In this document: one piece after another, positions 2,617 to 56,150 of the stretch
How positions within the stretch are numbered: the first letter of the stretch is position 1
Layout of the letters: each line of letters starts with the position of its first letter
Source of the DNA: an uncultured Planctomycetia bacterium
GTDB lineage: Bacteria > Omnitrophota > Gorgyraeia > Tantalellales > Tantalellaceae
Length of the DNA: 64,000 nucleotides
Direction: 5' to 3'
Assembly (NCBI GenBank): GCA_964572255.1
Contig: CAZNEE010000001.1
Location: forward strand, 459,587-523,586
Made by a program: the position numbers and the translations under genes
The notes under the pieces: model-generated
Told to the model about the DNA's origin: nothing
Database searches by the model: none
What the model saw: only the letters and a program-made list of their open reading frames with translations

Positions 2617-4533
2617 ATGTTCGAATCTATCAAGTTATACACCGGCGAGACAGTTGAGCTGGATGAGATCATCCGGAACCTTGAGCGGTACGACTATAAC
2701 AGGTGCCGGAAAGTCTCGATCGAAGGGGATTACAGCCTTCTCGGAGAGACCCTCATAATTTTTCCCGTCACATTTGAATACCCCGTAAGGATAGATCTTT
2801 CGGACGGCAAGGTAAATTCCATAAAAAGTGTCGATATAGTATCATTCCGCACGATCACGGACCATAAAGGCGTTATCGTTCTTCCCGCGAATATCCTGCG
2901 CCGCACAAAAGTAAAAAAACAGCAGATGGAGCTCGGGGAAAGCCCCATAGATTCTTTTGTGGATATCGAGCCGGGCGATTTTGTTGTCCATATAGATTAC
3001 GGTATAGGAAAATATCTGGGCATGCAGCGCATGCGGCGTGACGGGAAAGTGCAGGATTATTTTGTTATTGAATATGCCGGAGGGGATAAACTGTATGTTG
3101 AGCACGCTGACCTGCATAAACTTCAAAGGTATGTGTCATTTCACAGAAAACCGCATAAGCTCAACAGTCTTAAGGGTAAAAGGTGGCAGAGCGCCAAGAA
3201 CAGGGCGACGAAAGGCGCTGAAAAAATAGCCCGGGATTTTCTGCGCCTGCAGGCGATCAGGGAAAATACAAAAGCCTATGCGTTCAGCAAAGATACCGAC
3301 TGGCAAAAAGAGGTAGAAGATGCCTTCCCGTATAAAGAAACACCGGATCAGATTAAAGCGACCGGGGAAACCAAGCTTGACATGGAAAAGATGCGTCCGA
3401 TGGATAGGCTTCTGTGCGGTGATGTGGGATACGGAAAGACGGAAGTCGCCATGCGCGCGGCATTCAAAGCGGTCATGGATAATAAACAGGTGGCTTTCCT
3501 TGTTCCCACAACCATTTTGGCCGAACAGCACATGGAAACTTTCCAGAAGAGGATGAAGGATTATCCCGTTAACATACAGATGCTGAACCGCTTTAAGACC
3601 CCCTCGGAACAGGAAAAAATAGTCACGGGGGTCAGGGAGGGGAAGATCGATATCGTTATAGGCACGCACCGGCTCCTTTCAGATGATATAAAATTCAAAG
3701 ATCTGGGGCTTCTTATCATCGATGAAGAGCAGAGATTCGGCGTTAAACAAAAAGATAAAATAAAGAGGATGCGTGTTAATGTTGATATCCTTACGCTTAC
3801 TGCCACGCCCATACCCAGAACCCTTTATCTTGCTCTCATGGGGGGCAAAGACATTTCGATGATAGAGACGCCGCCTTTGGAAAGGATACCTGTTCATGCC
3901 AAGGTCATAGAATTTGACAAGAAGGTCATCAAAGAAGCCATCAGGAAGGAATTAGAGAGGAAGGGACAGGTTTATTTTGTGCACAACAGGGTCGAATCGA
4001 TAGACAGAATAGCCTCTGAAGTAAAAGCTCTTGTCCCGGAAGCCAGACTTATGGTGGGGCACGGCCAGATGAGCTCAAAAATGCTTGAAGAAACCATGGT
4101 AAAATTCATTAAAGGAGAAGTGGATATTCTGGTATGCACGACTATCATAGAATTCGGGATAGATATCCCTAATGCGAATACCATGATACTGAATCAGGCG
4201 GACAAGTTCGGTTTAGCGGATCTTTATCAGCTTAAAGGCAGGATAGGAAGATTTGACAGGCAGGCTTTCGCGTATCTCGTTGTCAGGGATTTTGGTTCAT
4301 TGACGGGCGAAGTAAGAAAACGATTGGAGGTTATACAGAAATACCATGAGCTGGGTTCCGGGTTTAAAATAGCCATGCGGGATCTTGAGATGAGAGGAGC
4401 CGGCAATATTCTGGGAATAGAACAGAGCGGCTTCATTGACTCGATCGGTTTTGATCTGTATTGCCGCCTGCTCCGGGAAGAAATCTCAAAGCTCAAGGGG
4501 GACGCCCCATTCGGGGACACCCTACATAGCTAA
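2617..4533 (+). CDS. mfd: Transcription-repair coupling factor Mfd, short form of 638 aa. It has an RNAP-interaction-like region followed by the superfamily 2 (SF2) translocase module. The UvrB-homology N-terminus and the D7 C-terminal domain are absent.
   Basis: The stretch FPYKETPDQIKATGETKLDMEKMRPMDRLLCGDVGYGKTEVAMRAAFKAV...LVPTTILAEQH matches the Mfd translocase module almost residue for residue. The helicase motif QLKGRIGRFDRQAFAYL and the TRG-like region (RDLEMRGAGNILGIEQSGFIDSIGFDLYCRLL) are present. The ORF ends inside a repeat element at 4497-4522. Confidence 0.8.
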   Translation: MFESIKLYTGETVELDEIIRNLERYDYNRCRKVSIEGDYSLLGETLIIFPVTFEYPVRIDLSDGKVNSIKSVDIVSFRTITDHKGVIVLPANILRRTKVKKQQMELGESPIDSFVDIEPGDFVVHIDYGIGKYLGMQRMRRDGKVQDYFVIEYAGGDKLYVEHADLHKLQRYVSFHRKPHKLNSLKGKRWQSAKNRATKGAEKIARDFLRLQAIRENTKAYAFSKDTDWQKEVEDAFPYKETPDQIKATGETKLDMEKMRPMDRLLCGDVGYGKTEVAMRAAFKAVMDNKQVAFLVPTTILAEQHMETFQKRMKDYPVNIQMLNRFKTPSEQEKIVTGVREGKIDIVIGTHRLLSDDIKFKDLGLLIIDEEQRFGVKQKDKIKRMRVNVDILTLTATPIPRTLYLALMGGKDISMIETPPLERIPVHAKVIEFDKKVIKEAIRKELERKGQVYFVHNRVESIDRIASEVKALVPEARLMVGHGQMSSKMLEETMVKFIKGEVDILVCTTIIEFGIDIPNANTMILNQADKFGLADLYQLKGRIGRFDRQAFAYLVVRDFGSLTGEVRKRLEVIQKYHELGSGFKIAMRDLEMRGAGNILGIEQSGFIDSIGFDLYCRLLREEISKLKGDAPFGDTLHS

Positions 4534-4604
4534 CAACATCATAACTTTTACAAAAATTTTATATTTATTTAATCTTATAGGGTGTCCCCGAATGGGGCGT
4601 CCCC
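4497..4604. repeat. MITE-like element, copy 1. It has perfect 25-bp terminal inverted repeats (GGGGACGCCCCATTCGGGGACACCC / GGGTGTCCCCGAATGGGGCGTCCCC) flanking about 57 bp of AT-rich interior.
   Basis: The inverted repeat can be read directly on both arms. The left arm encodes the last residues of Mfd (DAPFGDTLHS-stop). A second copy sits at 42931-43026. Confidence 0.6.
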
Positions 4605-4679
4605 AAATAAATCTTGCAGGCGTGGAAGGGTTCTGATAACATATACCCCATATTATAATTATTTAGGCGGTTTAATATA

Positions 4680-5552
4680 ATGCACAACAAAAATAAAATC
4701 ATCATTTCTTGTATTTTTACGGCGGTTTCGGTATCTTTGTTGGCTTTATTGACATCCGGGTGCGGGAGGTCAAGAGGCAAGGAGACTCTCGCTTTGATCG
4801 GCAACACCAAGATAACGGTTTCGGATTTCGATGAAAGGATATCGAACTTGCCCGAGAGATATCAAGCCGTAGTAAAGAAACGCAAAAATGAATTTCTTCA
4901 GAAGATCATAAACGATACCGTGCTTTATCAGGAAGCGGTGAGGGAAGGGCTGCACAAGGACAAGGATGTCCAGAAGGTGATAGAAGAAGCGAAGAAGAAG
5001 ATCCTGATCGCGCGCCTTTTAAAAGACAGGCTTGACGATTCCATCGAGATCACGGACGAAGAGATAATAGCCGATTACAGCCAGAACAGGGAAAGGTACA
5101 TGACGCCGGAGATCATGCGCGTTTCCCATATTCTTGTGCCCACAAGGGAAGAAGCCGAGAATGTTTTAAAGCAGCTGGATAAAGGTAAATCTTTCGAAGA
5201 TATGGCGAAGGCAAAATCTGTTGACCCGACCGCGCAAAGAGGAGGGGATATAGGTTATTTTCCCAAAGGGCAGCTGATGCCGGAATTTGAAGCGGCATGC
5301 ACACAACTCCAGATAGATCAGGTAAGCGGCGTTGTCGAGACGAAACTGGGTTATCATATAATAAAACTGACCGATAGAAGGCCTCCGGTACAACGTCCTT
5401 TGAATGAGGTAAAAGAAAAAATAAAATCCAGATTGCATAATATCGAAAGACAGAAACTGTTTAATGATCTTCTGAAAAATCTGCATGAAAAGACCAAGAT
5501 AAAGGTCAATGAAGAAGTCTTAAAAGCCGGCGGGGAGGATGAAAATAAATGA
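4680..5552 (+). CDS. Periplasmic peptidyl-prolyl isomerase lipoprotein of the SurA/PrsA-like parvulin family.
   Basis: The lipobox is LLTSGC. A SurA-N-like helical region is followed by a parvulin rotamase domain (VSHILVPTREEAE...GGDIGYFPKGQLMPEFE...GYHIIKL). Confidence 0.7.
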   Translation: MHNKNKIIISCIFTAVSVSLLALLTSGCGRSRGKETLALIGNTKITVSDFDERISNLPERYQAVVKKRKNEFLQKIINDTVLYQEAVREGLHKDKDVQKVIEEAKKKILIARLLKDRLDDSIEITDEEIIADYSQNRERYMTPEIMRVSHILVPTREEAENVLKQLDKGKSFEDMAKAKSVDPTAQRGGDIGYFPKGQLMPEFEAACTQLQIDQVSGVVETKLGYHIIKLTDRRPPVQRPLNEVKEKIKSRLHNIERQKLFNDLLKNLHEKTKIKVNEEVLKAGGEDENK

Positions 5553-6511: not shown

Positions 6512-7499
6512 GCCGCAGATCTTCATAACCATGGGCGATCCGGCCGGTATAGGGCCGGAAGTTATCATGAAAACAATGGCAAGTCCGGCGATAAGACGGC
6601 TTGCCGTTTTTGTTATAATTGCCGATAGCGGCGTGATAAAGAAAAATCCGGCCGGCCTTTCTTTGGAAGAGGTGCTTTTTCATCCGAATGATCAAGAAGT
6701 GACTTTGGATGAGGAGCGCATCAATGTTCTTGATCCCGGGCCGGAACTTGGAGAGATCACACCGGGGCAACCTACCGATGAAGGCGCCCGAAAAGCTCTT
6801 GATTGCATCGATCTGGCCATTAGAGCTGCCGGCGATCCGGAGAATAATACACCAAAAGCAATAGTAACGGCTCCCGTGTGCAAAGAGGCAATAGCGAATA
6901 TTCATCCCGGTTTTATCGGGCACACGGAATATCTGCAGAACGCTTTCTCATCGGAACTTGTGACCATGGTGATGGTAGGGAAGACGTTCTCGGTCGTTCC
7001 CGTAACAAGACATATACCGCTTAAAGAAGTTCCTTCAGTACTGTCACTGGATCTTATATACGAAACCTTAAAGCAGGTCGTGGAGGGGCGTCATATCATA
7101 TCAGGCAAAGAAGATCCCCATATCAGCGTCACGGCATTAAACCCTCATTCCGGAGAAGGCGGCAGGATCGGACGGGAAGAGATCGATCTCATACGCCCGG
7201 CTGTCGATAAAGCAAGATCTTTATACGGGGAAATGGATGGCCCCGTTTCAGCCGATGTTGTTTTTTACCGGGCGATGCACGGAAAAACCGACATAGTAGT
7301 GGGCATGTATCATGATCAGTGCCTTGCGCCGTTCAAGATGGTGGAGTTCGATAAAGGGATAAACATGACGCTCGGGCTGGGCTGTGTCCGCACTTCTCCA
7401 GACCATGGTACAGCTTTTGATATAGCGGGCAAGGGCATCGCAAACCATGCTTCGATGGAAGAGGCGGTTAAATTGGCGATCCGAGCGGTTGTCGTATAA
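6489..7499 (+). CDS. pdxA: 4-hydroxythreonine-4-phosphate dehydrogenase.
   Basis: The motifs ITMGDPAGIGPEV, GHTEYL and ALNPHSGEGG are present. The start may instead be the ATG at 6531 (MGDPAG...). Confidence 0.85.
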   Translation: MRISPTNKPQIFITMGDPAGIGPEVIMKTMASPAIRRLAVFVIIADSGVIKKNPAGLSLEEVLFHPNDQEVTLDEERINVLDPGPELGEITPGQPTDEGARKALDCIDLAIRAAGDPENNTPKAIVTAPVCKEAIANIHPGFIGHTEYLQNAFSSELVTMVMVGKTFSVVPVTRHIPLKEVPSVLSLDLIYETLKQVVEGRHIISGKEDPHISVTALNPHSGEGGRIGREEIDLIRPAVDKARSLYGEMDGPVSADVVFYRAMHGKTDIVVGMYHDQCLAPFKMVEFDKGINMTLGLGCVRTSPDHGTAFDIAGKGIANHASMEEAVKLAIRAVVV

Positions 7500-7507
7500 A
7501 TAGATTT

Positions 7508-7653
7508 GATGTGTGAGCTGTTTCTGACAGGACATCAAATTGATGAGCGAGCATGGTGTCTTGCGTTTAAGAGCCGGACGAGCGAAGCAATTTTTGAGTC
7601 AAATTTTCTCGCTGGGAAAATTTGACGTTCCTGGAAGAAATAGCTCACACATC
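7508..7653. repeat. Structured palindromic intergenic element. An 18-bp inverted repeat, GATGTGTGAGCTGTTTCT / AGAAATAGCTCACACATC (one mismatch), encloses nested palindromes.
   Basis: Inverted repeat arms lie at 7508-7525 and 7636-7653. The inner palindrome CATCAAATTGATG sits at 7533-7545. GTCAAATTTT/AAAATTTGAC lie at 7598-7607 and 7617-7626. Confidence 0.45.
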
Positions 7654-7676
7654 GAATGTTTTCATATTAAATAACG

Positions 7677-8935: not shown

Positions 8936-10396
8936 ATGAAAGATATTTTATCCGGCATAAACACATACAAGGAATGGCTTAAAGAGCAGTCAGGATCCTT
9001 CGCGGATGCTGCTCTCTTCCTGACCAGCAGAATATCCAAGCTTGATAAAGATGTGAACGCTTTTATTGAGATTGACAAGGAAGGAATAACCAAAAATGCC
9101 GAAGAAATCGATGCCGCATCAGCCGAAGGCGTTTTAAGAGGCGTACCCGTAGGGATAAAAGATAATATTTGCATAAAGGGCCGGCTTACCACGTGCGGGT
9201 CGCATATTCTTGAAGGTTTCAGACCTCCTTATAACGCTACAGTAGTAGATAAACTTAGATTCGTAGGCGCGCTTTTAATAAACCGCGCTAACATGGATGA
9301 ATTCGCCTTCGGTTCTTCCTGCGAAACTTCTTATTACGGGCCGACAAAAAACCCGTGGGATACCAAACATATACCCGGGGGTTCAAGCGGCGGTTCTGCC
9401 GCGGCGGTAGCTGCCGGCGAGGTTGTTGCGGCTTTGGGTTCGGATACAGGCGGCTCCATACGTCAGCCTGCATCGCTTTGCGGGGTCGTCGGATTCAAAC
9501 CGACATACGGCCGGGTATCAAGATATGGCCTTATAGCTTTTGCGTCGAGTCTTGACCAGATAGGGCCCATTACGCGCAATATCGAAGATTGCGCTGTAAT
9601 GCTTGAAGCTATATCGGGATATGATGAGAAAGATTCAACTTCGGTCAATAGGGAAGTGCCCCGTTACACAGAAAGCCTTTCAAAAGATATTAAAGGAATG
9701 AAGGTAGGTATCCCGAAAGAGTATTTCATTGAAGGCATAGAGCCGGGCGTGAAAGCCCGCGTTGAAGAGTCGATAAATGTTTACAGGGATCTCGGCGCCG
9801 AGATAGTGGATATCTCGCTCCCGCATACCAAGTATGCGGTAAGCTGTTATTACATAATCGGCCCGGCTGAAGCGAGCTCTAATCTGGCCAGGTATGACGG
9901 CGTTCATTACGGATACAGGAACAGAAAAGCCAATGATATTATCGACATGTATATCGCCTCGCGCAATGACGGGTTCGGGGCGGAAGCGAAACGAAGGATA
10001 CTTCTTGGGACGTACGCTCTCAGTAGCGGATATTATGAAGCGTATTACCTGAAAGCGCTGAAGGTGCGCACGAAAATAGCCGATGATTTTAGTGATGCAT
10101 TTGAACAATGTAAAGTCATTCTTACTCCCACATCACCGACAACAGCGTTCAAAATAGGTGAAAAAGTGGAGGATCCGCTCCAGATGTATCTGTCGGACAT
10201 ATTTACGATCCCGGCGAACCTTGCGGGTCTTCCTGCGGTCTCTATGCCTTGCGGAGTTGACGAAAAAGATCTCCCGGTCGGGCTTCAGCTCATGGCTCAG
10301 CCTTTCGATGAGGAGACTTTAATAAAAGCAGCACATGCATTCGAACGCAGCACTGAGCATCATAAGCTTGTGGGGGAGAAAATTTTGAAAAAATAG
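8936..10396 (+). CDS. gatA: Glutamyl-tRNA(Gln) amidotransferase subunit A.
   Basis: The amidase signature GGSSGGSAAAVAAGE...GSDTGGSIRQPA is present in a 486-aa product. Confidence 0.9.
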   Translation: MKDILSGINTYKEWLKEQSGSFADAALFLTSRISKLDKDVNAFIEIDKEGITKNAEEIDAASAEGVLRGVPVGIKDNICIKGRLTTCGSHILEGFRPPYNATVVDKLRFVGALLINRANMDEFAFGSSCETSYYGPTKNPWDTKHIPGGSSGGSAAAVAAGEVVAALGSDTGGSIRQPASLCGVVGFKPTYGRVSRYGLIAFASSLDQIGPITRNIEDCAVMLEAISGYDEKDSTSVNREVPRYTESLSKDIKGMKVGIPKEYFIEGIEPGVKARVEESINVYRDLGAEIVDISLPHTKYAVSCYYIIGPAEASSNLARYDGVHYGYRNRKANDIIDMYIASRNDGFGAEAKRRILLGTYALSSGYYEAYYLKALKVRTKIADDFSDAFEQCKVILTPTSPTTAFKIGEKVEDPLQMYLSDIFTIPANLAGLPAVSMPCGVDEKDLPVGLQLMAQPFDEETLIKAAHAFERSTEHHKLVGEKILKK

Positions 10397-10406
10397 AGTG
10401 AATAGT

Positions 10407-10475
10407 GAGTAGCGGGTGTCTTTAGTGGGAGGATCCACACTGGGCGGAGGGGCCCACGAAAGGCACCCGGTACTC
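10407..10475. repeat. Intergenic hairpin element carrying the conserved 29-nt core GGGAGGATCCACACTGGGCGGAGGGGCCC (copy A; core at 10427-10455).
   Basis: The core matches 25141-25169 with one substitution and is the reverse complement of 37940-37968. The flanking arms GAGTAGCGGGTGTCTTTAGTGGG and CCCACGAAAGGCACCCGGTACTC are near-complementary. Confidence 0.5.
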
Positions 10476-10504
10476 GCATTTTTACTTTTTATAATAAAAT
10501 TGTT

Positions 10505-11947
10505 ATGGCTAAAAATTACGAGACTGTCATAGGATTGGAAGTTCACGTCCAGCTTTTAACAAAGACCAAAGCTTTCTGTGGATGCAGTACGGCTTTTGGA
10601 GCCAGGCCCAATTCACAGGTCTGTCCGGTCTGCCTCGGGCTTCCCGGGGTTCTTCCGGTACTTAACAGGAAAGCTTTCGAATATGCCATAAAAGTCGCTC
10701 TTGCGCTTGATTGCGATATACAGAAAACAGTAAAGTTTGACCGGAAAAATTATTATTACCCGGATCTTCCTAAAAATTACCAGATCAGCCAGTTCGACAT
10801 GCCGATCGCTTATAACGGCAAGATAGTGTTATACGCCGATACCGATAACCCGAAAGAGATCGGCGTGACACGCGCCCATCTTGAGGAGGATGCCGGCAAA
10901 CTCCTTCATGACGAGAACGCACCTTTCAGTTATGTCGATCTTAACAGGACCGGCACACCGCTTCTTGAGATAGTTTCCGAACCGGACATAAGAACTCCCC
11001 AGGAGGCGTACGATTACCTTGTTTCCTTAAAGAGGACGATAAAGTACCTTGAAGTGTCCGATTGCAACATGGAAGAAGGAAGCCTCAGATGCGACGCCAA
11101 TATCTCCATACGGGAAGAGGGGGATAAGAAGTTAGGGAGTAAGGTGGAAATAAAAAACCTCAATTCTTTTAAGGCCGTTAGGGAGGCGCTTGCGTACGAG
11201 CGCCAAAGGCAGATAGAGGCAATAGAAGACGGGGAGAAAATAATACAAGAGACTCGTTTATGGGATGAGAAAAAGAACATCACTTCATCCATGAGGACAA
11301 AAGAAGAGTCCCATGACTATAGGTATTTCCCGGAACCCGACCTTGTCCCTTTTGAGGTTAAACCGGAAGTGATCGATAGGGTACGCGAAACGATGCCCGA
11401 ACTCCCCGATAAAAAAGCTCAAAGGTTCATCAGAAAATATAAGTTGGATGAAAAAGATATCGAGGTGCTAATATCCGAAAAGGACATCGCTATCCTTTTT
11501 GAAGATGTGGCGGAAAAATTAAAAGATCCACAGTCTGCGTGTAATTGGATAAAAGGCGAAGTGATGAAGCACATCAATGAAAGAGGGACCGATGTAAAGG
11601 GTTTGCAACTTGACCCCGGACATCTTGCCGAAATCATAAAAATGGCCAAAGACGGCACTATCAGCGGACTTGCGGCGAAGGATGTCCTTAACAGTTGCAT
11701 TGACACGGGCAAATCTCCCGTTTCCATAGTAAAGGAAAAAGGACTCCAGCAGGTTTCTGACGAAGGCCAGCTGGATGAAATTGTCGTAAAGGTGATCGCC
11801 GAAAATGAAAAGTCGGCCAACGATTTTAAGGGCGGGAAAGAAAACGCTTTAAGCTTTCTTATAGGGCAGGTCATGAAGCATTCGGGAGGAAAGGCCAATC
11901 CTAAACTTGCCGGCGATATGCTTAAGAAAAAGATCCTGGGAGGATAA
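10505..11947 (+). CDS. gatB: Glutamyl-tRNA(Gln) amidotransferase subunit B.
   Basis: The N-terminus MAKNYETVIGLEVHVQLLTKTKAFCGC is diagnostic for GatB. The product is 480 aa with a GatB/YqeY C-terminal domain. Confidence 0.9.
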   Translation: MAKNYETVIGLEVHVQLLTKTKAFCGCSTAFGARPNSQVCPVCLGLPGVLPVLNRKAFEYAIKVALALDCDIQKTVKFDRKNYYYPDLPKNYQISQFDMPIAYNGKIVLYADTDNPKEIGVTRAHLEEDAGKLLHDENAPFSYVDLNRTGTPLLEIVSEPDIRTPQEAYDYLVSLKRTIKYLEVSDCNMEEGSLRCDANISIREEGDKKLGSKVEIKNLNSFKAVREALAYERQRQIEAIEDGEKIIQETRLWDEKKNITSSMRTKEESHDYRYFPEPDLVPFEVKPEVIDRVRETMPELPDKKAQRFIRKYKLDEKDIEVLISEKDIAILFEDVAEKLKDPQSACNWIKGEVMKHINERGTDVKGLQLDPGHLAEIIKMAKDGTISGLAAKDVLNSCIDTGKSPVSIVKEKGLQQVSDEGQLDEIVVKVIAENEKSANDFKGGKENALSFLIGQVMKHSGGKANPKLAGDMLKKKILGG

Positions 11948-17884: not shown

Positions 17885-18453
17885 ACAAGATTAAAAGCCG
17901 CAGCAAACTTTTCGTTCTAAAGCGGTTTCAGGTCCGCTACATAACCATGATACTGATCTTTACGTTCGTTATCGCCTTGATCTCCGGTTACACCGTTTAT
18001 GTTACCACCTGGATCATATTCGGCGAAAAACTTGCCGCGGTATACCCTCAAGGGCTTCTATTGGACATAGTCAAGAAAGTCAACACGGTTTTGCTGCTGC
18101 GGCTTTTATTCCTGACCCCCCTTGTGGCGTTAATAGGTCTTTTTCTGTCCAATAAGATAGCCGGCCCGATCTACAGGATAAAAAAATCCGTCAAATCAGT
18201 AAAAGCCGGTAATTATGACAGCATGATAAAGCTGAGAGAGAAAGATGAGCTGCATGACCTTGCGGACGAAATAAACTCTCTGGTGTATAAATTGAAGGAT
18301 GAAAGGACCCTTTTAAGGGGGAAACTGGATGAACTCAAGAAAGAGACCATGGAGCTTGAGGAATACATAAGCAGCAAAACTTCCAAAAGGGAAGATCTAC
18401 TGATAAAAGTCCGGGATATGAGGCAGCGCCTCGAGACCCTTGGCAGTGGATAG
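17881..18453 (+). CDS. Membrane protein with two TM helices and a C-terminal coiled coil (hypothetical).
   Basis: ATG at 17881 follows the ribosome-binding site GGAGA. TM segments are ITMILIFTFVIALISGYTVYV and LLLRLLFLTPLVALIGLFL. The coiled coil is LKDERTLLRGKLDELKKETMELEEY. Confidence 0.4.
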   Translation: MNKIKSRSKLFVLKRFQVRYITMILIFTFVIALISGYTVYVTTWIIFGEKLAAVYPQGLLLDIVKKVNTVLLLRLLFLTPLVALIGLFLSNKIAGPIYRIKKSVKSVKAGNYDSMIKLREKDELHDLADEINSLVYKLKDERTLLRGKLDELKKETMELEEYISSKTSKREDLLIKVRDMRQRLETLGSG

Positions 18454-24408: not shown

Positions 24409-25103
24409 TGAGAATTTATTCCGAAACAGTTCCGGTGCAGTACGAAGAAGGCAGAACTCACTTTTGCGGAATGGATATCCTGGTCGATGAAAGGGTATTT
24501 ATCCCGCGGCCGGAAACGGAACTGGTGGTATCAACAGTTATCGATCTTTGTCAGAAAAAAAGTTTAAAGGATCCGTTCATACTTGATGTGTGTACGGGAA
24601 GCGGGGCGATATCGATAGCGCTGGCTAAGCATGTTCCCTCATCCCGGGTGATAGCCGTGGATATCTCGGAAGATGCCCTGCAAGTTGCCCGGGCAAATGC
24701 AGTCAGAGCGGGAGTTGAGAAAAGCATAACTTTTTTCCGTTCCGATATGTTCGGCGCTTTATGTCCGGATTATAAAGGGATGTTTGATGCAGTGGTTTCA
24801 AATCCGCCTTATGTATCAGCCGGTGATTATCAAAAAGCGGATGCCTGGGTCAAGGCGGAACCCGAAATAGCTCTATTGGCAGGCGATGAGGGCATGGATC
24901 ACTTGAATATTTTGGCTGAGGAAAGCGGAGACTTTCTTAAAGCGGGAGGATTTCTGGCGGTCGAGATCGGGTACGACCAGTCAGAAAAGGTCAAAAGAGC
25001 TTTTTTATCCGCGGGCTATGAAAATATAAGCCCGCACAAGGATTTCAACGGTTACGAACGTGTTATAACCGGAGAAAAGCCTCAGCGGAAAGAGATATAT
25101 TAA
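24408..25103 (+). CDS. prmC: Release factor glutamine methyltransferase.
   Basis: The SAM-binding motif ILDVCTGSGAISIALA and the NPPY motif (VVSNPPYVS) are present. The gene follows prfA. Confidence 0.8.
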   Translation: MRIYSETVPVQYEEGRTHFCGMDILVDERVFIPRPETELVVSTVIDLCQKKSLKDPFILDVCTGSGAISIALAKHVPSSRVIAVDISEDALQVARANAVRAGVEKSITFFRSDMFGALCPDYKGMFDAVVSNPPYVSAGDYQKADAWVKAEPEIALLAGDEGMDHLNILAEESGDFLKAGGFLAVEIGYDQSEKVKRAFLSAGYENISPHKDFNGYERVITGEKPQRKEIY

Positions 25104-25118
25104 ATTAGGATTTGTGGA

Positions 25119-25191
25119 TTTGCTTGTTATGTTTCGTACAGGGAGGATCCACACCGGGCGGAGGGGCCCTGGTAGAAATATAACAAGCAAA
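25119..25191. repeat. Intergenic hairpin element carrying the conserved 29-nt core (copy B; core at 25141-25169, GGGAGGATCCACACCGGGCGGAGGGGCCC).
   Basis: The 12-bp flanking stem TTTGCTTGTTAT / ATAACAAGCAAA encloses the core. The core differs from copy A by a single T to C change. Confidence 0.5.
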
Positions 25192-25208
25192 TTGAGAGAT
25201 GCGAATTT

Positions 25209-26474
25209 ATGGATAAATTATTAGTAGAGGGCGGCAGGAGATTAAAGGGAAGCATAAAGGTGAGCGGCGCTAAGAACGCTTGTCTTCCGATAATGGCGGC
25301 GTCACTTTTGACCGGCGAATCCTGCACGATAAGGAACATCCCGGACCTTAAAGATGTCTCTACAATGATAGAGATATTGGCGGCTTTAGGGCGCAAGGTC
25401 AAACGTGAAGGTGACGTGCTTCGCATTGAAGAAGGCGAGGCAACCAGCCAGACAGCTCCTTATGAACTGGTAAGCACAATGCGCGCTTCCATCGTTGTTT
25501 TGGGGCCGCTCCTTTCGAGGTACGGAAAAGCAAGGGTTTCTTTCCCGGGCGGATGCGTGATCGGCCCAAGGCCGATCGATCTGCATTTAAAGGGATTGAG
25601 AGCGCTCGGTGCCGATATCCGGATCGATGAAGGATACATTGTTGCCGGCGCGAAGAAGCTCAAGGGGACCAGAATTTATCTGGGCGGGCATTTCGGATCA
25701 AGCGTTCTTGCGACAGCAAACACGCTCATGGGGGCGGTTCTGGCAGAAGAAGAGACTGTCATAGAAAATGCCGCATGCGAACCCGAGGTAGTGGACCTGG
25801 CGAATTTTCTGATCGCAATGGGAGCGTACATAAAAGGCACCGGAACGCCGACGATCAGGGTTAAAGGAGTGGATAAATTAAGAGGTGTTGATTATTCCAT
25901 CGTTCCGGACAGGATTGAAGCCGGAACTTATATGATAGCCGGTGTTTTGACTGACGGAAGGCTCTTTCTTGAAAATGCAAGATTGGAGCATAACCTTGCT
26001 TTGGTGGACAAACTTCAGGAATGCGGCGCGGCGGTTGAAGAGAAGGAGAACGGGCTGGATGTCTACAGGAACACCAGAACCGTCCGGCCTACGGATATAA
26101 CGACTCTTACATATCCGGGGTTCCCGACCGATCTGCAGGCGCAGATAATGAGTCTATTGACATTAAGTGACGGCATCAGCGTAATTACGGAAAAAGTATA
26201 TCCTGAAAGATTTATACATATAAGCGAGCTCAACAGGATGGGAGCGAACATCATCCTTGAAGGTTCAACCGCTATTATCAAGGGCGTCAAGAGATTAAGC
26301 GGCGCGCCGGTAATGGCATCGGACCTAAGGGCCTCCGCGGCGCTTATACTTGCCGGCCTTGTTGCCGAAGGCGCTACCGAGATCTCCAGGATATATCACT
26401 TAGACAGAGGTTACGAGCATATAGAAGACAAACTATCGGCTGTAGGAGCAAAGATAGAAAGAATAAAAGAGTAA
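25209..26474 (+). CDS. murA: UDP-N-acetylglucosamine 1-carboxyvinyltransferase.
   Basis: The N-terminus LLVEGGRRLKGSIKVSGAKNA is typical of MurA. The product is 421 aa. Confidence 0.9.
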   Translation: MDKLLVEGGRRLKGSIKVSGAKNACLPIMAASLLTGESCTIRNIPDLKDVSTMIEILAALGRKVKREGDVLRIEEGEATSQTAPYELVSTMRASIVVLGPLLSRYGKARVSFPGGCVIGPRPIDLHLKGLRALGADIRIDEGYIVAGAKKLKGTRIYLGGHFGSSVLATANTLMGAVLAEEETVIENAACEPEVVDLANFLIAMGAYIKGTGTPTIRVKGVDKLRGVDYSIVPDRIEAGTYMIAGVLTDGRLFLENARLEHNLALVDKLQECGAAVEEKENGLDVYRNTRTVRPTDITTLTYPGFPTDLQAQIMSLLTLSDGISVITEKVYPERFIHISELNRMGANIILEGSTAIIKGVKRLSGAPVMASDLRASAALILAGLVAEGATEISRIYHLDRGYEHIEDKLSAVGAKIERIKE

Positions 26475-26745: not shown

Positions 26746-27489
26746 ATGAAGATAGACATTTTGACATTGTTCCCGGAGATGTTCAAAGGCGTTTTCAGCG
26801 AGTCGATGATAAAGATCGCCCGCAAAAAAGGTCTTGCTGATATCGAGATCCATGATCTCCGAAAGTGGACTTTTGATAACCACAGAACGGCTGATGATAA
26901 GCCGTTTGGAGGAGGTCCGGGCATGGTCATGAAAGTAGAGCCGGTCGATCTTGCTCTTGGCCAGATAAGAGGCAAAGCCGGAGGTAAAAAGACGAGGGTC
27001 ATACTTCTTACCCCGCAGGGCAGGAAATTCGACCAGTCCGCCGCAAGAGATCTTTCCGCGCTCGAACACATTATACTGATCTGCGGACATTATGAGGGAG
27101 TGGACGAGAGAGTGCGTGAATTGGTCGATATGGAATTATCGATAGGAGATTACATTTTAACTTGCGGAGAGATACCGGCCATGGTCTTATGCGATGCGGT
27201 GATCCGTCTTATCCCCGGAGTACTCGGAGACGAAGAGTCGCTTTTGGACGAATCTTTTGAGAACGGAATTTTGGAGTATCCGCAATATACAAGGCCCGCG
27301 GTATACAAACAGATGAAAGTCCCGGAGATCCTTTTAAGCGGTGATCATGACAAAATAGAGGCCTGGAGGAAAGAAGAGGCCCTCAAAAGAACTAAAGAAA
27401 GAAGACCGGACCTATTATCAATTGGGGGACAGTCCCCCAGGGGACAGGCCTCGTATTTAAAAGGAGAGAAAAATGAACCAAAAAGTTAA
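26746..27489 (+). CDS. trmD: tRNA (guanine37-N1)-methyltransferase.
   Basis: The N-terminus [13 protein letters not shown] and the motif GGGPGMVMK are present. The rpsP-trmD-rplS order is conserved. Confidence 0.9.
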
Positions 27490-27820
27490 GGACCTTGAGA
27501 AAAGATATACCAGAAGCGATATCCCGAAGTTTAATATAGGGGATAATATCGATGTTCATTTTCGTATCAAAGAAGAGAACAAGGTGCGTGTTCAGGTATT
27601 CAGCGGCATAGTTATCGGCCAAGGCGGAAGAGGAGTGAACAGGTCTTTCACGGTAAGAAGAATATCTTACGGGGAAGGCGTGGAAAGGACTTTTCCGTTC
27701 AATTCGCCGCTTATCGATAAGGTAGAACTTAAGAAAAAGGGTAAGGTCAGACGCGCCAAGCTTTATTATCTCAGAGGGAGAAAAGGTAAAAGAGCCACCA
27801 AGGTCAGGGAAAAAGTCTGA
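27473..27820 (+). CDS. rplS: 50S ribosomal protein L19.
   Basis: The stretch [48 protein letters not shown] is typical of L19. Confidence 0.9.
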
Positions 27821-42004: not shown

Positions 42005-42970
42005 GTGAAAATATTAGTTACAGGCGCGACAGGTTTTATCGGTCAAAGATTTGTCGAAAGTATCCTGCCGGAGGGAAATGAGATCTTCTCGCTTGTGAGA
42101 AAAACAAGCAAGGTTGATTTTTTAAAAAAGGCGGGAATTTCTCTCATTACTGCGGATATAGCAGACCGGGAGGAAGTGGAGAAAGTCTTTTCCGAGGTTC
42201 GGCCCGATGTTACGGTGCATTGTTCCGCCAGCGTCACTTCAGGTGATGAAGATGAGCTTTATAAAGCTAATGTGGTCGGAACCGAAAATATTTGCTCTGC
42301 GTGCTTGAAATATTGCACGGATCGCCTTGTATATCTAAGTTCGGTTTCGGTGGTAAGCGGAAATACCGAAACTCCCCTAAGGGATGATATGCCGTATAAA
42401 GCCACAAGCGCTTACGGCCGGTCAAAAATAGAAGCTGAAAAAAAAGTTTTAAGATACAGGGACAAAGGGCTGCGCGCGGTCGTACTCAGGCCGTGCATGG
42501 TTTACGGGGAAGAAGAACCGCATGCACTTGATAAAATACTCCGGAGGGTATCAAAAAGACTGGTTCCGGTGATCTCCATGCCGGGAGTGAAGGACAAGCT
42601 GCATCTGGCATATATTGATAATGTTGTAGATGCGATGCGGCTTGCCATGGGAAAGCCTCAAGCGCTTTCGGGTACGTTTATCATCGCCGACAGGGAGATA
42701 ATATCGATAAGAAAATTTATTGAGATCCTCTCCGATGAGCTTGGCGCGGGAAAACCTTTCGTGATACCGGTTTTTTTAGTTAAGACCGCTCTTATAGTCC
42801 CGTTTATAAGGAAAAAATTCAACAGGATATTTAAAGACAGGATATATGATATAAGCCGGGCAGTTAGCGAGCTTGGCTATGACCCAAAGATCTCGACCGA
42901 AGAGGCTTTAAGAAAAACCGCTCGGTATTGGGGGACGCCCCATTTGGGGACACCCCACAAGGGAGAATAA
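42005..42970 (+). CDS. NAD-dependent epimerase/dehydratase (extended SDR).
   Basis: The Rossmann motif ILVTGATGFIG and a YxxxK catalytic motif are present. The C-terminal residues (WGTPHLGTPHKGE) are encoded by the MITE-like element. Confidence 0.75.
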   Translation: MKILVTGATGFIGQRFVESILPEGNEIFSLVRKTSKVDFLKKAGISLITADIADREEVEKVFSEVRPDVTVHCSASVTSGDEDELYKANVVGTENICSACLKYCTDRLVYLSSVSVVSGNTETPLRDDMPYKATSAYGRSKIEAEKKVLRYRDKGLRAVVLRPCMVYGEEEPHALDKILRRVSKRLVPVISMPGVKDKLHLAYIDNVVDAMRLAMGKPQALSGTFIIADREIISIRKFIEILSDELGAGKPFVIPVFLVKTALIVPFIRKKFNRIFKDRIYDISRAVSELGYDPKISTEEALRKTARYWGTPHLGTPHKGE

Positions 42971-43026
42971 GCATAAAAAATTATACTTGGTTAGCTATAT
43001 GGGGTGTCCCCAAATGGGGCGTCCCC
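42931..43026. repeat. MITE-like element, copy 2. It has perfect 26-bp terminal inverted repeats (GGGGACGCCCCATTTGGGGACACCCC / GGGGTGTCCCCAAATGGGGCGTCCCC).
   Basis: The terminal repeats can be read directly. They match copy 1 except for one position (C versus T at the centre). The interior is the approximate reverse complement of copy 1's interior. Confidence 0.6.
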
Positions 43027-43037
43027 CTTCAAATGAT

Positions 43038-53681: not shown

Positions 53682-53828
53682 GGACGTTTCCAAAAATAAT
53701 CCCGGAAGCGTCCCTAAGGTCAAAGCCAGACCTGTCCCCATCACGGGGGAGAATTATTTTTGTCTTTTTTTTATACCCTCACCACTTACTTCAAATTCTT
53801 TTTTTAATAAAGATAGTTTTATATTGCT

Positions 53829-54039
53829 CACGGGAAAGATGAGCTTTTGGAGTGAATACGATTTTTAGGCATTTATTTGGTTTTTTAAGGTAAATTACCT
53901 ATTTTTGCAACTGTTTGAGCCGGATGAGCTAATAATATGGAAATGATCAGCGAAGCAGGCGAGTTTTGCAAAACCTTAAAAAGGCAAATAAATGGCGTTA
54001 AGAAAATCGTCTGAACGGGAAAAGCTCATCTTTCCCGTG
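53829..54039. repeat. Roughly 210-bp long palindromic element (MITE-like or structured RNA). A perfect 20-bp terminal inverted repeat, CACGGGAAAGATGAGCTTTT / AAAAGCTCATCTTTCCCGTG, encloses nested complementary segments.
   Basis: The terminal repeats lie at 53829-53848 and 54020-54039. The inner pairs are CATTTATTTG/CAAATAAATG, TTAAGG/CCTTAA and TTTTGCAA/TTGCAAAA. Confidence 0.5.
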
Positions 54040-54130
54040 TACTATAAAAAACTTGACTTATCTCACCTTATAATGTAATCTTTTACTAAGGATGGATAGT
54101 TAACAAAAATGTTAATTATGTATATTTAGC

Positions 54131-55892: not shown

Positions 55893-55904
55893 CACGCCAT
55901 TAAT

Positions 55905-55978
55905 GCGAGCGTAGCACAGTGGTAGTGCAGTGGCCTTCCAAGCCACCTACGTGGGTTCGATCCCCATCGCTCGCTCCA
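55905..55978 (+). tRNA. tRNA-Gly (anticodon UCC).
   Basis: The cloverleaf is acceptor GCGAGCG/CGCTCGC, D-arm GCAC-AGTGGTA-GTGC, anticodon stem GTGGC/GCCAC with loop CTTCCAA, and T-arm GTGGG-TTCGATC-CCCAT followed by T-CCA. Confidence 0.85.
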
Positions 55979-55982
55979 GTTT

Positions 55983-56012
55983 AAAAGGGCTCAAAAATGA
56001 GCCCTTTTATTA
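55983..56012 (+). terminator. Intrinsic terminator after the tRNA cluster.
   Basis: AAAGGGCTC-AAAAAT-GAGCCCTTT is followed by TAT. Confidence 0.45.
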
Positions 56013-56150
56013 TGCCCTGAAAATTAAGATATAAAATAGTTATATTAATTATAATTGACATATTTGCTCCTATATGTTAACATAATAAAAAGCTATTTTT
56101 AGCTAAATTTAACTATAATTAATATATTATATTAATTGGGTTGGCGCACA

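What the first reader, a model, noticed from the sequence alone, without database searches (positions are those of the whole stretch)
4497..4604. MITE-like element with perfect 25-bp terminal inverted repeats that supplies the C-terminus of Mfd
GGGGACGCCCCATTCGGGGACACCC ... GGGTGTCCCCGAATGGGGCGTCCCC flank about 57 bp of AT-rich DNA. The mfd reading frame runs into the left inverted repeat, so the last 10 residues (DAPFGDTLHS) and the stop are element-encoded. The protein ends exactly where the Mfd C-terminal autoinhibitory domain (D7 in E. coli numbering) would begin. Either the lineage has a naturally short Mfd and the element landed at its 3' end, or insertion truncated the gene.
Basis: partly seen in the sequence, partly recalled or inferred. 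Interest (0 to 1): 0.6.

Follow-up and report, generated by a model that had tools for sequence, protein, structure and literature searches.

The report
Transposase-linked hairpin repeat at mfd's end
A 107-bp hairpin-forming mobile repeat, whose ends match those flanking a tyrosine transposase gene in what appears to be the same genome, landed two codons before the stop of mfd and gave it a 10-residue tail; it did not truncate the gene, because the whole phylum has this short Mfd.

Summary
A perfect 25-nt inverted repeat (4498-4522 / 4580-4604) brackets 57 AT-rich bp, and mfd (2617-4533) reads through the left arm, so residues 628-638 and the stop are element-encoded.

The truncation idea is refuted. 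More than 100 Candidatus Omnitrophota Mfd proteins are 613-647 aa (bar two fragments) and all but one fragment end at the same motif. Deleting exactly 4498-4604 restores ...KLK-K-TAA (628 aa), followed by a promoter-like sequence that relatives also have.

The element is one of a small dispersed family. A second doublet lies at 42930-43027, with others in other MAGs. Its arms match the inverted repeats that flank a single-context Y1/HUH transposase gene of the RAYT (TnpAREP-like) class, in the same samples and probably on the same 527-kb contig.

The single arm is not a GTAG-tagged REP hairpin. It carries the GGGGWSAS motif of the published 'TIRtron/TIRYT' variant. So this is a REPIN-like, TIRYT-associated non-autonomous element: a new member of a known kind, of modest interest.

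The more interesting by-product is the lineage-wide mini-Mfd (D2-RID-translocase, no D1/D3/D7).

The parts
4498..4522 (+). Left arm (25-nt terminal inverted repeat GGGGACGCCCCATTCGGGGACACCC). Its inner half GGGGACAC fits the TIRYT motif GGGGWSAS.
   Evidence: motif from PMC3733652
4523..4579 (.). 57-bp AT-rich spacer, itself partly palindromic. The left subterminal ACATAGCTAA is identical to the sequence next to the transposase-proximal repeat in L007. It contains the present mfd stop codon TAA at 4531-4533.
4580..4604 (-). Right arm, exact reverse complement of the left arm.
2617..4533 (+). mfd (638 aa): D2-like UvrB_inter 5-92, RID 118-173, DEAD and Helicase_C translocase. No D1a/D1b/D3/D7.
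4498..4533 (+). Element-encoded codons 628-638 (G DAPFGDTLHS) plus the TAA stop.
4605..4610 (+). Inferred ancestral last codon and stop (AAA TAA), now displaced downstream of the element. Joining 4497 to 4605 gives ...EEISKLKK*, 628 aa.
   Evidence: inference from the sequence and from relatives' C-termini
4614..4642 (+). Promoter-like TTGCAG-17 nt-TAACAT for the downstream PPIase gene (4680-5552). It is positionally conserved in relatives (TTGAAG-17-TATGAT/TATCAT) and left intact by the insertion.
   Evidence: by eye from the printed sequences; it falls below the threshold of the consensus scan
42930..43027 (-). Second doublet of the same family: arms 42931-42955 and 43002-43026 with the paired ATTT/AAAT variant, 46-bp spacer. 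Orientation is opposite to the mfd copy, judged by subterminal homology.
42005..42970 (+). NAD-dependent epimerase gene whose tail (W)GTPHLGTPHKGE* is encoded by the second doublet. Relatives end ...RYWK plus 3-20 variable residues.
27424..27450 (+). Possible degenerate relic of the same repeat (GGGGGACAGTCCCCCAGGGGACAGGCC) inside the C-terminal tail of trmD. Membership is uncertain.

Best explanation
The feature is a ~107-bp non-autonomous mobile element of the REPIN type. It consists of two inverted copies of a 25-nt repeat, each with about 12 nt of subterminal sequence, around a short AT-rich spacer. As single-stranded DNA or RNA it folds into a 27-bp hairpin.

The same repeat, in inverted orientation, flanks a single-context Y1/HUH tyrosine transposase gene of the RAYT/TnpAREP class (P0162) in what is probably the same genome. 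The inferred mechanism is mobilisation in trans by that enzyme through single-strand cleavage and joining. That mechanism is established for IS200/IS605 TnpA; for E. coli TnpAREP only REP binding and cleavage have been shown in vitro. Transposition would leave no target-site duplication.

This copy inserted between codon 627 and the last codon of mfd, in the poorly conserved C-terminal tail. It replaced K-stop with G-DAPFGDTLHS-stop and left the downstream gene's promoter-like sequence intact. Mfd was already short: the whole phylum lacks D7, so nothing functional was cut off.

Shown: the repeat structure, family membership, transposase association, the lineage-wide short Mfd, and the empty-site reconstruction. 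Inferred: mobilisation by the RAYT, near-neutrality of the tail, and any effect of the hairpin on the mfd mRNA.
For: - Repeat and hairpin.
- Family: a second doublet lies in the window. Further doublets and solo arms occur in other Omnitrophota MAGs or contigs and in one 'Planctomycetia' bin.
- Transposase link, L006: a 211-aa Y1_Tnp ORF is bracketed by the repeat at 2337-2361 (+, variant) and 3150-3174 (-, exact).
- Transposase link, L007: P0162 at 10001-10591 is followed 12 nt after its stop by the repeat (1 mismatch, 10604-10628, minus strand). It is preceded by a degenerate copy at 9858-9882.
- Same genome: P0162 and the window's Mfd (P0001) come from the same samples and share the same longest contig length, 526,890. 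G+C is 0.45 for both stretches.
- Subterminal homology: ACATAGCTAA is shared by the mfd copy and the transposase-proximal repeat.
- RAYT class, residues: invariant H60/H62 (HUH), Y120-IERNP (the Y---NP signature) and S140/S141.
- RAYT class, profile searches: the best solved structure is E. coli TnpAREP 4er8 (5e-6), ahead of ISDra2 (3e-3) and IS608 (0.26). NCBIfam REP_Tyr_transpos scores 61-75 bits against 19 bits or less for the IS200 model.
- Other Omnitrophota homologues are also flanked by inverted repeats of related form.
- Paired variation: arms of a doublet share the C or the T variant at position 15, as described for REPINs (PMC3116915).
- Short Mfd is lineage-wide.
- Empty site, synteny and promoter-like sequence.
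- Published TIRtron/TIRYT class with the GGGGWSAS motif: PMC3733652 and PMC6006769.
Against: - A single 25-mer is not a significant hairpin (DNA fold z = -0.9) and has no 5' GTAG. It therefore fails the strict REP definition.
- NCBIfam RAYT scores are below the curated cut-off of 80 bits.
- A single-sequence PDB search found nothing.
- The left repeat beside P0162 has 7 mismatches, so the system may no longer be active.
- Copy number looks low: 2 doublets, the transposase flanks and 1 possible relic in about 94 kb sampled. The exact 25-mer is rare in public collections.
- Repeat identity does not track transposase similarity: the L006 and L007 enzymes are 49% identical yet share the repeat.
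It was not seen directly.
- No mobility was observed.
Confidence: 0.8

Rival explanations
1. Classical MITE: an internally deleted derivative of a DDE-transposase insertion sequence, like Neisseria Correia elements, moved by cut-and-paste with a target-site duplication.
For: It has perfect 25-bp terminal inverted repeats, is about 100 bp long, has an AT-rich interior and is dispersed. If the boundaries are shifted by 1 nt, three of five doublets have the same dinucleotide on both sides: AA/AA at mfd, TT/TT at 42930-43027 and AA/AA in L005.
Against: L003 and L004 show no duplication. For the second window copy, removing a TT duplication would fuse the epimerase ORF to the next gene without a stop (read from the sequence). 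The flanks are AT-rich, so matching dinucleotides are expected fairly often by chance. The only transposase gene found flanked by these repeats, in two independent loci, is a Y1/HUH enzyme. No DDE transposase carrying these ends was seen, although the search was not exhaustive.
Confidence: 0.07
2. A locally evolved regulatory hairpin, acting as a terminator or mRNA 3' stabiliser between mfd and the PPIase gene, rather than inserted DNA.
For: The stem is very stable and sits right at the gene end. REP-type hairpins are known to stabilise upstream mRNA and to affect translation when close to stop codons (stated in PMC6006769; Liang et al. 2015 from memory).
Against: The same 25-mer, with homologous subterminal sequence, occurs at unrelated loci and in other genomes. 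Three syntenic relatives have a 58-100-bp mfd-PPIase spacer without it. There is no U-tract, and the terminator scan found nothing. No Rfam family reached threshold; the only hits were sub-threshold plant miRNA hairpins. A secondary regulatory effect of the inserted element is not excluded.
Confidence: 0.03
3. The insertion truncated a once full-length Mfd, removing the autoinhibitory domain D7.
For: The protein ends at the residue that aligns with E. coli 988, the D6/D7 boundary.
Against: All 120 best homologues, down to 59% identity, are short: 613-647 aa apart from two fragments (539 and 583 aa), and all but one fragment end at ...GFDLYCRLLxxEIxxLK plus 0-17 residues. Excision restores an in-frame stop one codon later. 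The 75 bp between the element and the next gene carry a promoter-like sequence shared with relatives, not D7 remnants.
Confidence: 0.01
4. Same kind of element, but a fossil: the family is no longer mobile in this genome, and the copy at mfd is a fixed relic.
For: The left repeat of the transposase locus is degenerate, with 7 of 25 mismatches. The right one has 1 mismatch. Copy density is low. The insertion is present in every assembly that carries this mfd allele, and its 90% protein cluster has a single member sequence, so no empty allele is on record.
Against: Both window doublets have perfect arms of 25-28 bp with no decay. The transposase ORF is intact, with its catalytic residues conserved.
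Confidence: 0.35

Closest known systems
TIRtron / TIRYT systems (Di Nocera et al. 2013, PMC3733652; about TnpAREP subclass 2.1 of Quentin et al. 2018, PMC6006769)
   Same: A RAYT-like Y1 transposase gene is flanked by long terminal inverted repeats instead of GTAG-tagged REP hairpins. The repeat contains GGGGWSAS (here GGGGACAC). Moderately abundant copies are dispersed as singles and dimers. The protein has HUH, Y---NP and the downstream Ser motif.
   Different: The host phylum, Omnitrophota, is not named in the parts of either paper that were checked; a term search of PMC6006769 found no mention. The protein is short (196 aa), with no Pfam-detectable C-terminal HTH or DnaA-like domain, which is said to mark subclass 2.1. 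Each arm is a tandem of two GGGGAC(G/A)CCC units 15 nt apart.
REPIN-RAYT systems (Pseudomonas fluorescens, E. coli; Bertels & Rainey 2011, PMC3116915)
   Same: The replicative unit is an inverted doublet of a short repeat plus a spacer, and it forms a hairpin. The spacer is less conserved than the arms, with paired changes across the stem. Solo repeats also occur. The same repeat flanks a transposase gene seen in only one genomic context, which fits single copy. There is no consistent target duplication.
   Different: The single repeat is not itself an imperfect palindrome and lacks the 5' GT[AG]G guide tetranucleotide. Copy number appears to be far lower than the hundreds seen in Pseudomonas or E. 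coli.
Correia/NEMIS elements of Neisseria and other DDE-derived MITEs
   Same: About 100-150 bp, about 26-bp terminal inverted repeats, insertion next to or into gene ends, and long RNA hairpins that can affect mRNA fate (own knowledge).
   Different: Correia elements duplicate a TA target. Here there is no consistent duplication, and the associated enzyme is a Y1/HUH transposase.
Rickettsia palindromic elements and intragenic REPs (PMC3733652)
   Same: Palindromic repeats are tolerated inside coding sequence and translated as extra peptide. That paper notes that many intragenic REPs lie in replication and repair genes (uvrA, uvrB).
   Different: Those are in-frame internal insertions. Here the element replaces only the last codon and the stop, and it is read in different frames in different genes (GDAPFGDT versus GTPH[L/S]GTP).
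Canonical Mfd/TRCF (E. coli, 1148 aa; PDB 2eyq, 6x26)
   Same: RID, translocase domains D5/D6 and a D2-like UvrB-interaction domain are present. The alignment E-value is 4e-171.
   Different: D1a, D1b, D3 and D7 are absent in the whole phylum. In E. coli, D2 and D7 form the autoinhibitory clamp, and deleting D7 or the UvrB homology module derepresses the motor (PMC3488230).

Membership tests
REPIN / RAYT (REPtron) | Unit is two inverted copies of a short repeat with a short spacer, predicted to fold as one hairpin | tested here: met
   25-28-bp perfect stems, z about -11. Five doublets were seen (window x2, L003, L004, L005).
REPIN / RAYT (REPtron) | The same repeat flanks, in inverted orientation, a Y1/HUH transposase gene in the same genome | tested here: met
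   L007 and L006. 'Same genome' is inferred from shared samples and the identical longest contig length of 526,890.
REPIN / RAYT (REPtron) | The transposase is of the RAYT/TnpAREP class (HUH, catalytic Y in Y---NP, closer to TnpAREP than to IS200 TnpA) | tested here: met
   However, NCBIfam REP_Tyr_transpos scores of 61-75 bits are below its cut-off of 80, so equivalog status is not established.
REPIN / RAYT (REPtron) | The single repeat is an imperfect palindrome (20-40 nt) with a 5' GT[AG]G guide tetranucleotide | tested here: not met
   the 25-mer folds no better than shuffles (z = -0.9 and -0.6), with only 4-bp mini-stems. No GTAG is adjacent.
REPIN / RAYT (REPtron) | Transposase is single-copy and the repeats are highly abundant genome-wide | tested here: inconclusive
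   P0162 is always found in one genomic context. Only about 94 kb of the genome was readable: 2 doublets, the transposase flanks and 1 possible relic.
TIRtron / TIRYT | RAYT-like gene flanked by long terminal inverted repeats, not REP hairpins, that contain GGGGWSAS | tested here: met
   GGGGACAC fits the consensus given in PMC3733652.
TIRtron / TIRYT | The flanking repeats belong to a dispersed family of singles, dimers or clusters | tested here: met
TIRtron / TIRYT | Protein of TnpAREP subclass 2.1 with a C-terminal HTH/DnaA_C-like domain | tested here: not met
   Pfam finds only Y1_Tnp at E<=0.1 in the 196-aa protein. The roughly 55-aa C-terminal extension is conserved in the family but unassigned. 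Six of the 26 published TIRYTs also fall outside subclass 2.1.
Classical (DDE-derived) MITE | Terminal inverted repeats and a size below about 300 bp | tested here: met
Classical (DDE-derived) MITE | Target-site duplication of fixed length | tested here: inconclusive
   no consistent duplication. Boundaries are ambiguous by 1-2 nt because of the terminal G/C runs. 3 of 5 doublets could carry an AA or TT duplication, 2 of 5 cannot, and for one of the three the duplication model gives an implausible ORF.
Classical (DDE-derived) MITE | Parent insertion sequence with a DDE transposase and the same ends | not testable with these tools
   The complete genome is not available. None was seen in the loci fetched.
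Intrinsic terminator | GC-rich hairpin followed by a U-tract | tested here: not met
   none found. The stem is followed by AAATAAAT.
Mfd / TRCF | RID (RNAP-interacting domain) plus an SF2 translocase that aligns along its length with solved Mfd structures | tested here: met
Mfd / TRCF | Full UvrB homology module (D1a-D2-D1b), D3 and the C-terminal D7 clamp | tested here: not met
   Only D2 is present, and the protein ends at E. coli residue 988. This holds for all 120 listed relatives.

The most novel reading that the evidence does not exclude
In the compact genomes of Omnitrophota these transposase-linked doublets may not be random junk. They could be preferentially targeted to, or retained at, the last codons of genes, where they would serve as portable gene-end modules: stop codons shortly inside the spacer plus a 27-bp RNA hairpin. 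They would then be maintained by a domesticated single-copy transposase. Four of the five doublets seen overlap the 3' end of the upstream ORF. The identical 25-mer is also kept next to transposases that are only 49% identical.
Probability: 0.1. Interest if true: 0.55.

Novelty: new member of a known kind. Interest (0 to 1): 0.3.

Why it matters
For the finding itself the result is mainly a clean-up. The apparent loss of D7 by insertion is not real, and the C-terminal tail is a harmless by-product of a mobile repeat. Annotators of Omnitrophota MAGs should expect short repeat-encoded tails such as GDAPFGDT or GTPHLGTP on otherwise conserved proteins.

It also extends the RAYT/TIRYT-plus-repeat association to a poorly studied, uncultured phylum. 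It offers a compact test case (a 196-aa enzyme and a 25-nt bipartite site) for how TIR-type, non-hairpin repeats are recognised by Y1 transposases, which the literature leaves open.

Separately, the lineage-wide Mfd that keeps the UvrA-binding D2 but has no D7 clamp is a natural experiment on Mfd autoinhibition.

Tried and rejected
- A single-sequence PDB search with P0162 found nothing. A family profile was needed.
- The viral-contig scan for the 25-mer gave no hits. The metagenome scan gave only two contigs, so no large population of copies could be analysed.
- Rfam gave only sub-threshold plant miRNA-precursor hits, which reflect a generic long hairpin.
- The terminator/promoter consensus scan found nothing at the element.
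- CGTC-tagged REP idea: the arm's complement reads GGGGCGTCCCC. This was rejected because published CGTC REPs are 8-9-bp-stem hairpins with the tag at the very end and no dedicated transposase.
- Epimerase relatives' C-termini were used to try to fix the element boundaries and settle the duplication question. The tails are too variable for that. The conserved W codon even overlaps the terminal G run, so boundaries stay ambiguous by 1-2 nt.
- An alternative genetic code was considered because argS and mfd lie in the same frame, separated by TGA TAA. It was rejected: TAA is a stop in all the codes considered, and argS and mfd are separate genes in relatives too.
- About 9.4 kb more of the genome upstream was sampled for further copies; none were found.
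Full report
**1. Observation**

The sequence is as described. GGGGACGCCCCATTCGGGGACACCC lies at 4498-4522, and its exact reverse complement lies at 4580-4604. They are separated by 57 AT-rich bases.

The whole 107 bp is close to one long palindrome: 52-nt arms, 77% complementary. The 25-mer has no match in 100 dinucleotide shuffles of the window, whereas four arms are found. The region folds at -62.1 kcal/mol as RNA (z = -10.95) and -35.2 kcal/mol as DNA (z = -10.8).

The ORF 2617-4533 reads through the left arm. Codon 628 (GGG) begins at 4498, and the tail is G-DAPFGDTLHS. The TAA stop at 4531-4533 lies 9 nt into the spacer. The same locus, with an identical element, is found in independent assemblies from other samples (L011, L012, L013, L021). 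It is therefore not an assembly artefact.

**2. The gene**

The ORF upstream (919-2613) is argS. The mfd gene starts 3 nt after the argS TGA-TAA stops.

The 638-aa protein has these domains:
- a UvrB-interaction (D2-like) domain at residues 5-92;
- the RNAP-interacting domain (RID) at 118-173;
- the DEAD and Helicase_C translocase.

It aligns with E. coli Mfd at E = 4e-171. The alignment stops at query residue 628, which corresponds to E. coli residue 988, the end of D6.

**3. Was it truncated? No.**

- The 120 best homologues range from 77% down to 59% identity (besides the 100% self-match), and all those that carry a name are from Candidatus Omnitrophota. They are 613-647 aa, apart from two fragments (539 and 583 aa). 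All start with MF(E/D)S(L/I)K, and all but one fragment end with ...GFDLYCRLLxxEIxxLK followed by 0-17 variable residues.
- Gene order rsfS-argS-mfd-PPIase-surA-pdxA is conserved in the relatives examined. Their mfd-PPIase spacers are 58, 100 and 86 bp and carry no such element.
- Deleting exactly 4498-4604 joins AAG (K627) to AAA-TAA. The result is ...EEISKLKK*, 628 aa, one of the two commonest lengths among the relatives.
- The recovered TAA (4608-4610) is followed 3 nt later by TTGCAG-17 nt-TAACAT (4614-4642). This matches in position the TTGAAG-17-TATGAT/TATCAT found after the stop codon in the relatives.
- A model with a 2-bp AA duplication gives ...KLK* (627 aa) and recovers the same stop.

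Either way, the insertion displaced only the last one or two codons.

**4. What the element is**

*A dispersed family.* A second copy lies at 42930-43027. Its arms differ from the mfd copy at one position, and the change is paired (ATTT with AAAT). Its spacer is 46 bp, and its orientation is opposite, as judged by subterminal homology. It too is overlapped by the end of the upstream ORF, an epimerase with the tail W-GTPHLGTPHKGE*. Relatives of that epimerase end ...RYWK plus 3-20 residues.

The exact 25-mer is rare elsewhere but present:
- a doublet with a 138-bp spacer (L004) and a solo arm (L002) in one Omnitrophota MAG;
- a solo arm in another MAG (L001);
- an 85-bp doublet in a bin labelled Planctomycetia (L003);
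- a doublet plus a solo arm in a JGI contig (L005);
- nothing in viral contigs.

*Two distinct ends.* Beyond the 25-mer, arms fall into two subterminal classes: YRCRTRSNTAAA and YRYAAG... In three of the five doublets (both window copies and L005) the two arms are clearly one of each class; L003 and L004 are less clear. The element therefore has distinct left and right ends.

*Link to a transposase.*
- In L006 the 25-mer sits at the 3' end of a 211-aa ORF with a Y1_Tnp domain, and a variant copy lies 183 nt upstream in inverted orientation.
- A homologue, P0162 (196 aa), occurs in the same samples as the window's Mfd. Both proteins report the same longest contig, 526,890 bp.
- In L007 this gene is followed, 12 nt after its stop, by the repeat on the minus strand (one mismatch). 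It is preceded by a degenerate copy with 7 mismatches.
- The 10 nt next to the transposase-proximal repeat (ACATAGCTAA) are identical to those next to the left arm of the mfd copy.
- P0162 is always found in one genomic context, between a Na/Pi cotransporter gene and an aspartate dehydrogenase gene.

*Class of the transposase.* The family has an invariant HUH motif (H60, H62), Y120-IERNP and S140/S141. Its profile hits E. coli TnpAREP (4er8, 5e-6) ahead of ISDra2 (3e-3) and IS608 (0.26). The NCBIfam REP-associated tyrosine transposase model scores 61-75 bits, below its 80-bit cut-off. The IS200 model scores 19 bits or less.

Two other Omnitrophota homologues (L017, L019/L020) are likewise bracketed by inverted repeats of related form, GGGACGTGTCAAAAAGGGACAC.

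**5. Comparison with what is known**

The architecture matches the REPIN-RAYT scheme of Bertels & Rainey (PMC3116915) in four respects:
- an inverted doublet forms a hairpin;
- the spacer is less conserved than the arms, with paired changes across the stem;
- solo copies also occur;
- the same repeat flanks a transposase gene found in only one genomic context.

One defining feature of REPs is not met. A single arm is not a significant hairpin (z = -0.9) and has no 5' GTAG.

Exactly this variant has been described. Di Nocera et al. (PMC3733652) named RAYT-like genes flanked by long terminal inverted repeats 'TIRtrons' and their enzymes 'TIRYTs'. They noted that many such repeats share GGGGWSAS, and that some form moderately abundant families of singles and dimers. 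The inner half of the arm here, GGGGACAC, fits that consensus.

Quentin et al. (PMC6006769) place most TIRYTs in TnpAREP subclass 2.1, which carries a C-terminal HTH. The Omnitrophota protein shows the class 2 Y---NP signature and the Ser motif, but no detectable HTH.

A classical DDE-type MITE is unlikely. There is no consistent target duplication, and the only transposase found with these ends is a Y1 enzyme. An intrinsic terminator is excluded, since there is no U-tract. Rfam has nothing above threshold.

**6. How it most likely works**

*Shown:* the structure, family, transposase association, insertion point and intact neighbours.

*Inferred from established IS200/IS605 biochemistry and from TnpAREP REP cleavage in vitro:* the Y1 enzyme recognises the arms on single-stranded DNA, cleaves through its catalytic tyrosine, and moves the doublet without duplicating the target.

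The doublet was tolerated at this site because the last residues of Omnitrophota Mfd are variable (0-17 residues after KLK). The 10-residue tail is therefore probably neutral.

The 27-bp RNA stem that encloses the stop codon could stabilise the mfd 3' end, impede termination or attract RNase III. That is speculation by analogy with REPs and Correia elements.

Whether the family is still mobile is open. Both window doublets have perfect arms, but the left repeat of the transposase locus is decayed. Only two doublets were found in about 94 kb sampled.

**7. Unexplained**

- The same 25-mer accompanies transposases that are only 49% identical, while an equally distant homologue has a different repeat.
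- The L003 right arm has its central four bases apparently flipped.
- Four of the five doublets overlap the last codons of an upstream ORF, in two different reading frames (GDAPFGDT and GTPH[L/S]GTP). This may reflect tolerance in compact genomes or targeting.

**8. Verdict**

- The element is a REPIN-like doublet of a TIRYT-type transposase system, a new member of a known kind in an unstudied phylum. Interest is modest (0.3).
- The lineage-wide clamp-less mini-Mfd (D2-RID-D5-D6) is the more intriguing biology, given that deleting D7 or the UvrB homology module derepresses E. coli Mfd (PMC3488230). It is independent of the element and was not pursued.

Noticed in passing
window 2617-4533, and P0002-P0120: Every listed Candidatus Omnitrophota Mfd is a 'mini-Mfd' of 613-647 aa (bar two fragments): an N-terminal D2-like UvrB-interaction domain, RID and translocase, with no D1a/D1b/D3/D7. 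It keeps the UvrA-binding domain but lacks its D7 clamp partner, so it may be constitutively derepressed.
   Followed up: partly
window 27424-27450 (trmD 26746-27489, rplS 27473-27820): The trmD tail (...[25 protein letters not shown]) runs through GGGGGACAGTCCCCCAGGGGACAGGCC. This looks like a decayed copy of the same repeat, and the tail overlaps the rplS start.
   Followed up: partly
L007 9930-10000; L017 1440-1500; L019 1420-1500: The leaders of the RAYT-like genes share GAAAGAAAATCCCTCTTTT, which can pair with AAAGGAGGGATTTT at the ribosome-binding site. The predicted Shine-Dalgarno-sequestering stem has some compensatory changes, but only four sequences were compared.
   Followed up: partly
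L006 3150-3179; P0122; P0247: The transposase ORF of L006 and P0122 itself reads into its right repeat (tail GCPQMGRPQ). An epimerase homologue from another genome ends ...HLKGDTPLYT, which looks repeat-encoded. Repeat-derived C-terminal tails may be common in this phylum.
   Followed up: no
L006 versus L007 versus L017 (P0121, P0162, P0125): All pairwise transposase identities are 47-55% (apart from the near-duplicate pair P0121/P0122, 87%). Yet P0121 and P0162 carry the same 25-mer, while P0125 carries a different one. Repeat identity does not track enzyme similarity.
   Followed up: partly
window 53815-54053, 25101-25209, 7495-7666, 17886-18114: Four other long imperfect inverted repeats (20-51-nt arms, 77-90% complementary, 23-189 nt apart) of unrelated sequence were listed by the repeat finder.
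   Followed up: no
window about 55900-64000 (+): No complete ORF of 150 aa or more is listed on the + strand over the last ~8 kb. This suggests one very large gene that runs off the end of the window.
   Followed up: no
L003 2607-2631: The right arm of this doublet reads CCCATTTTGGGG where CCCCAAATGGGG is expected, as if the central four bases had been inverted.
   Followed up: no
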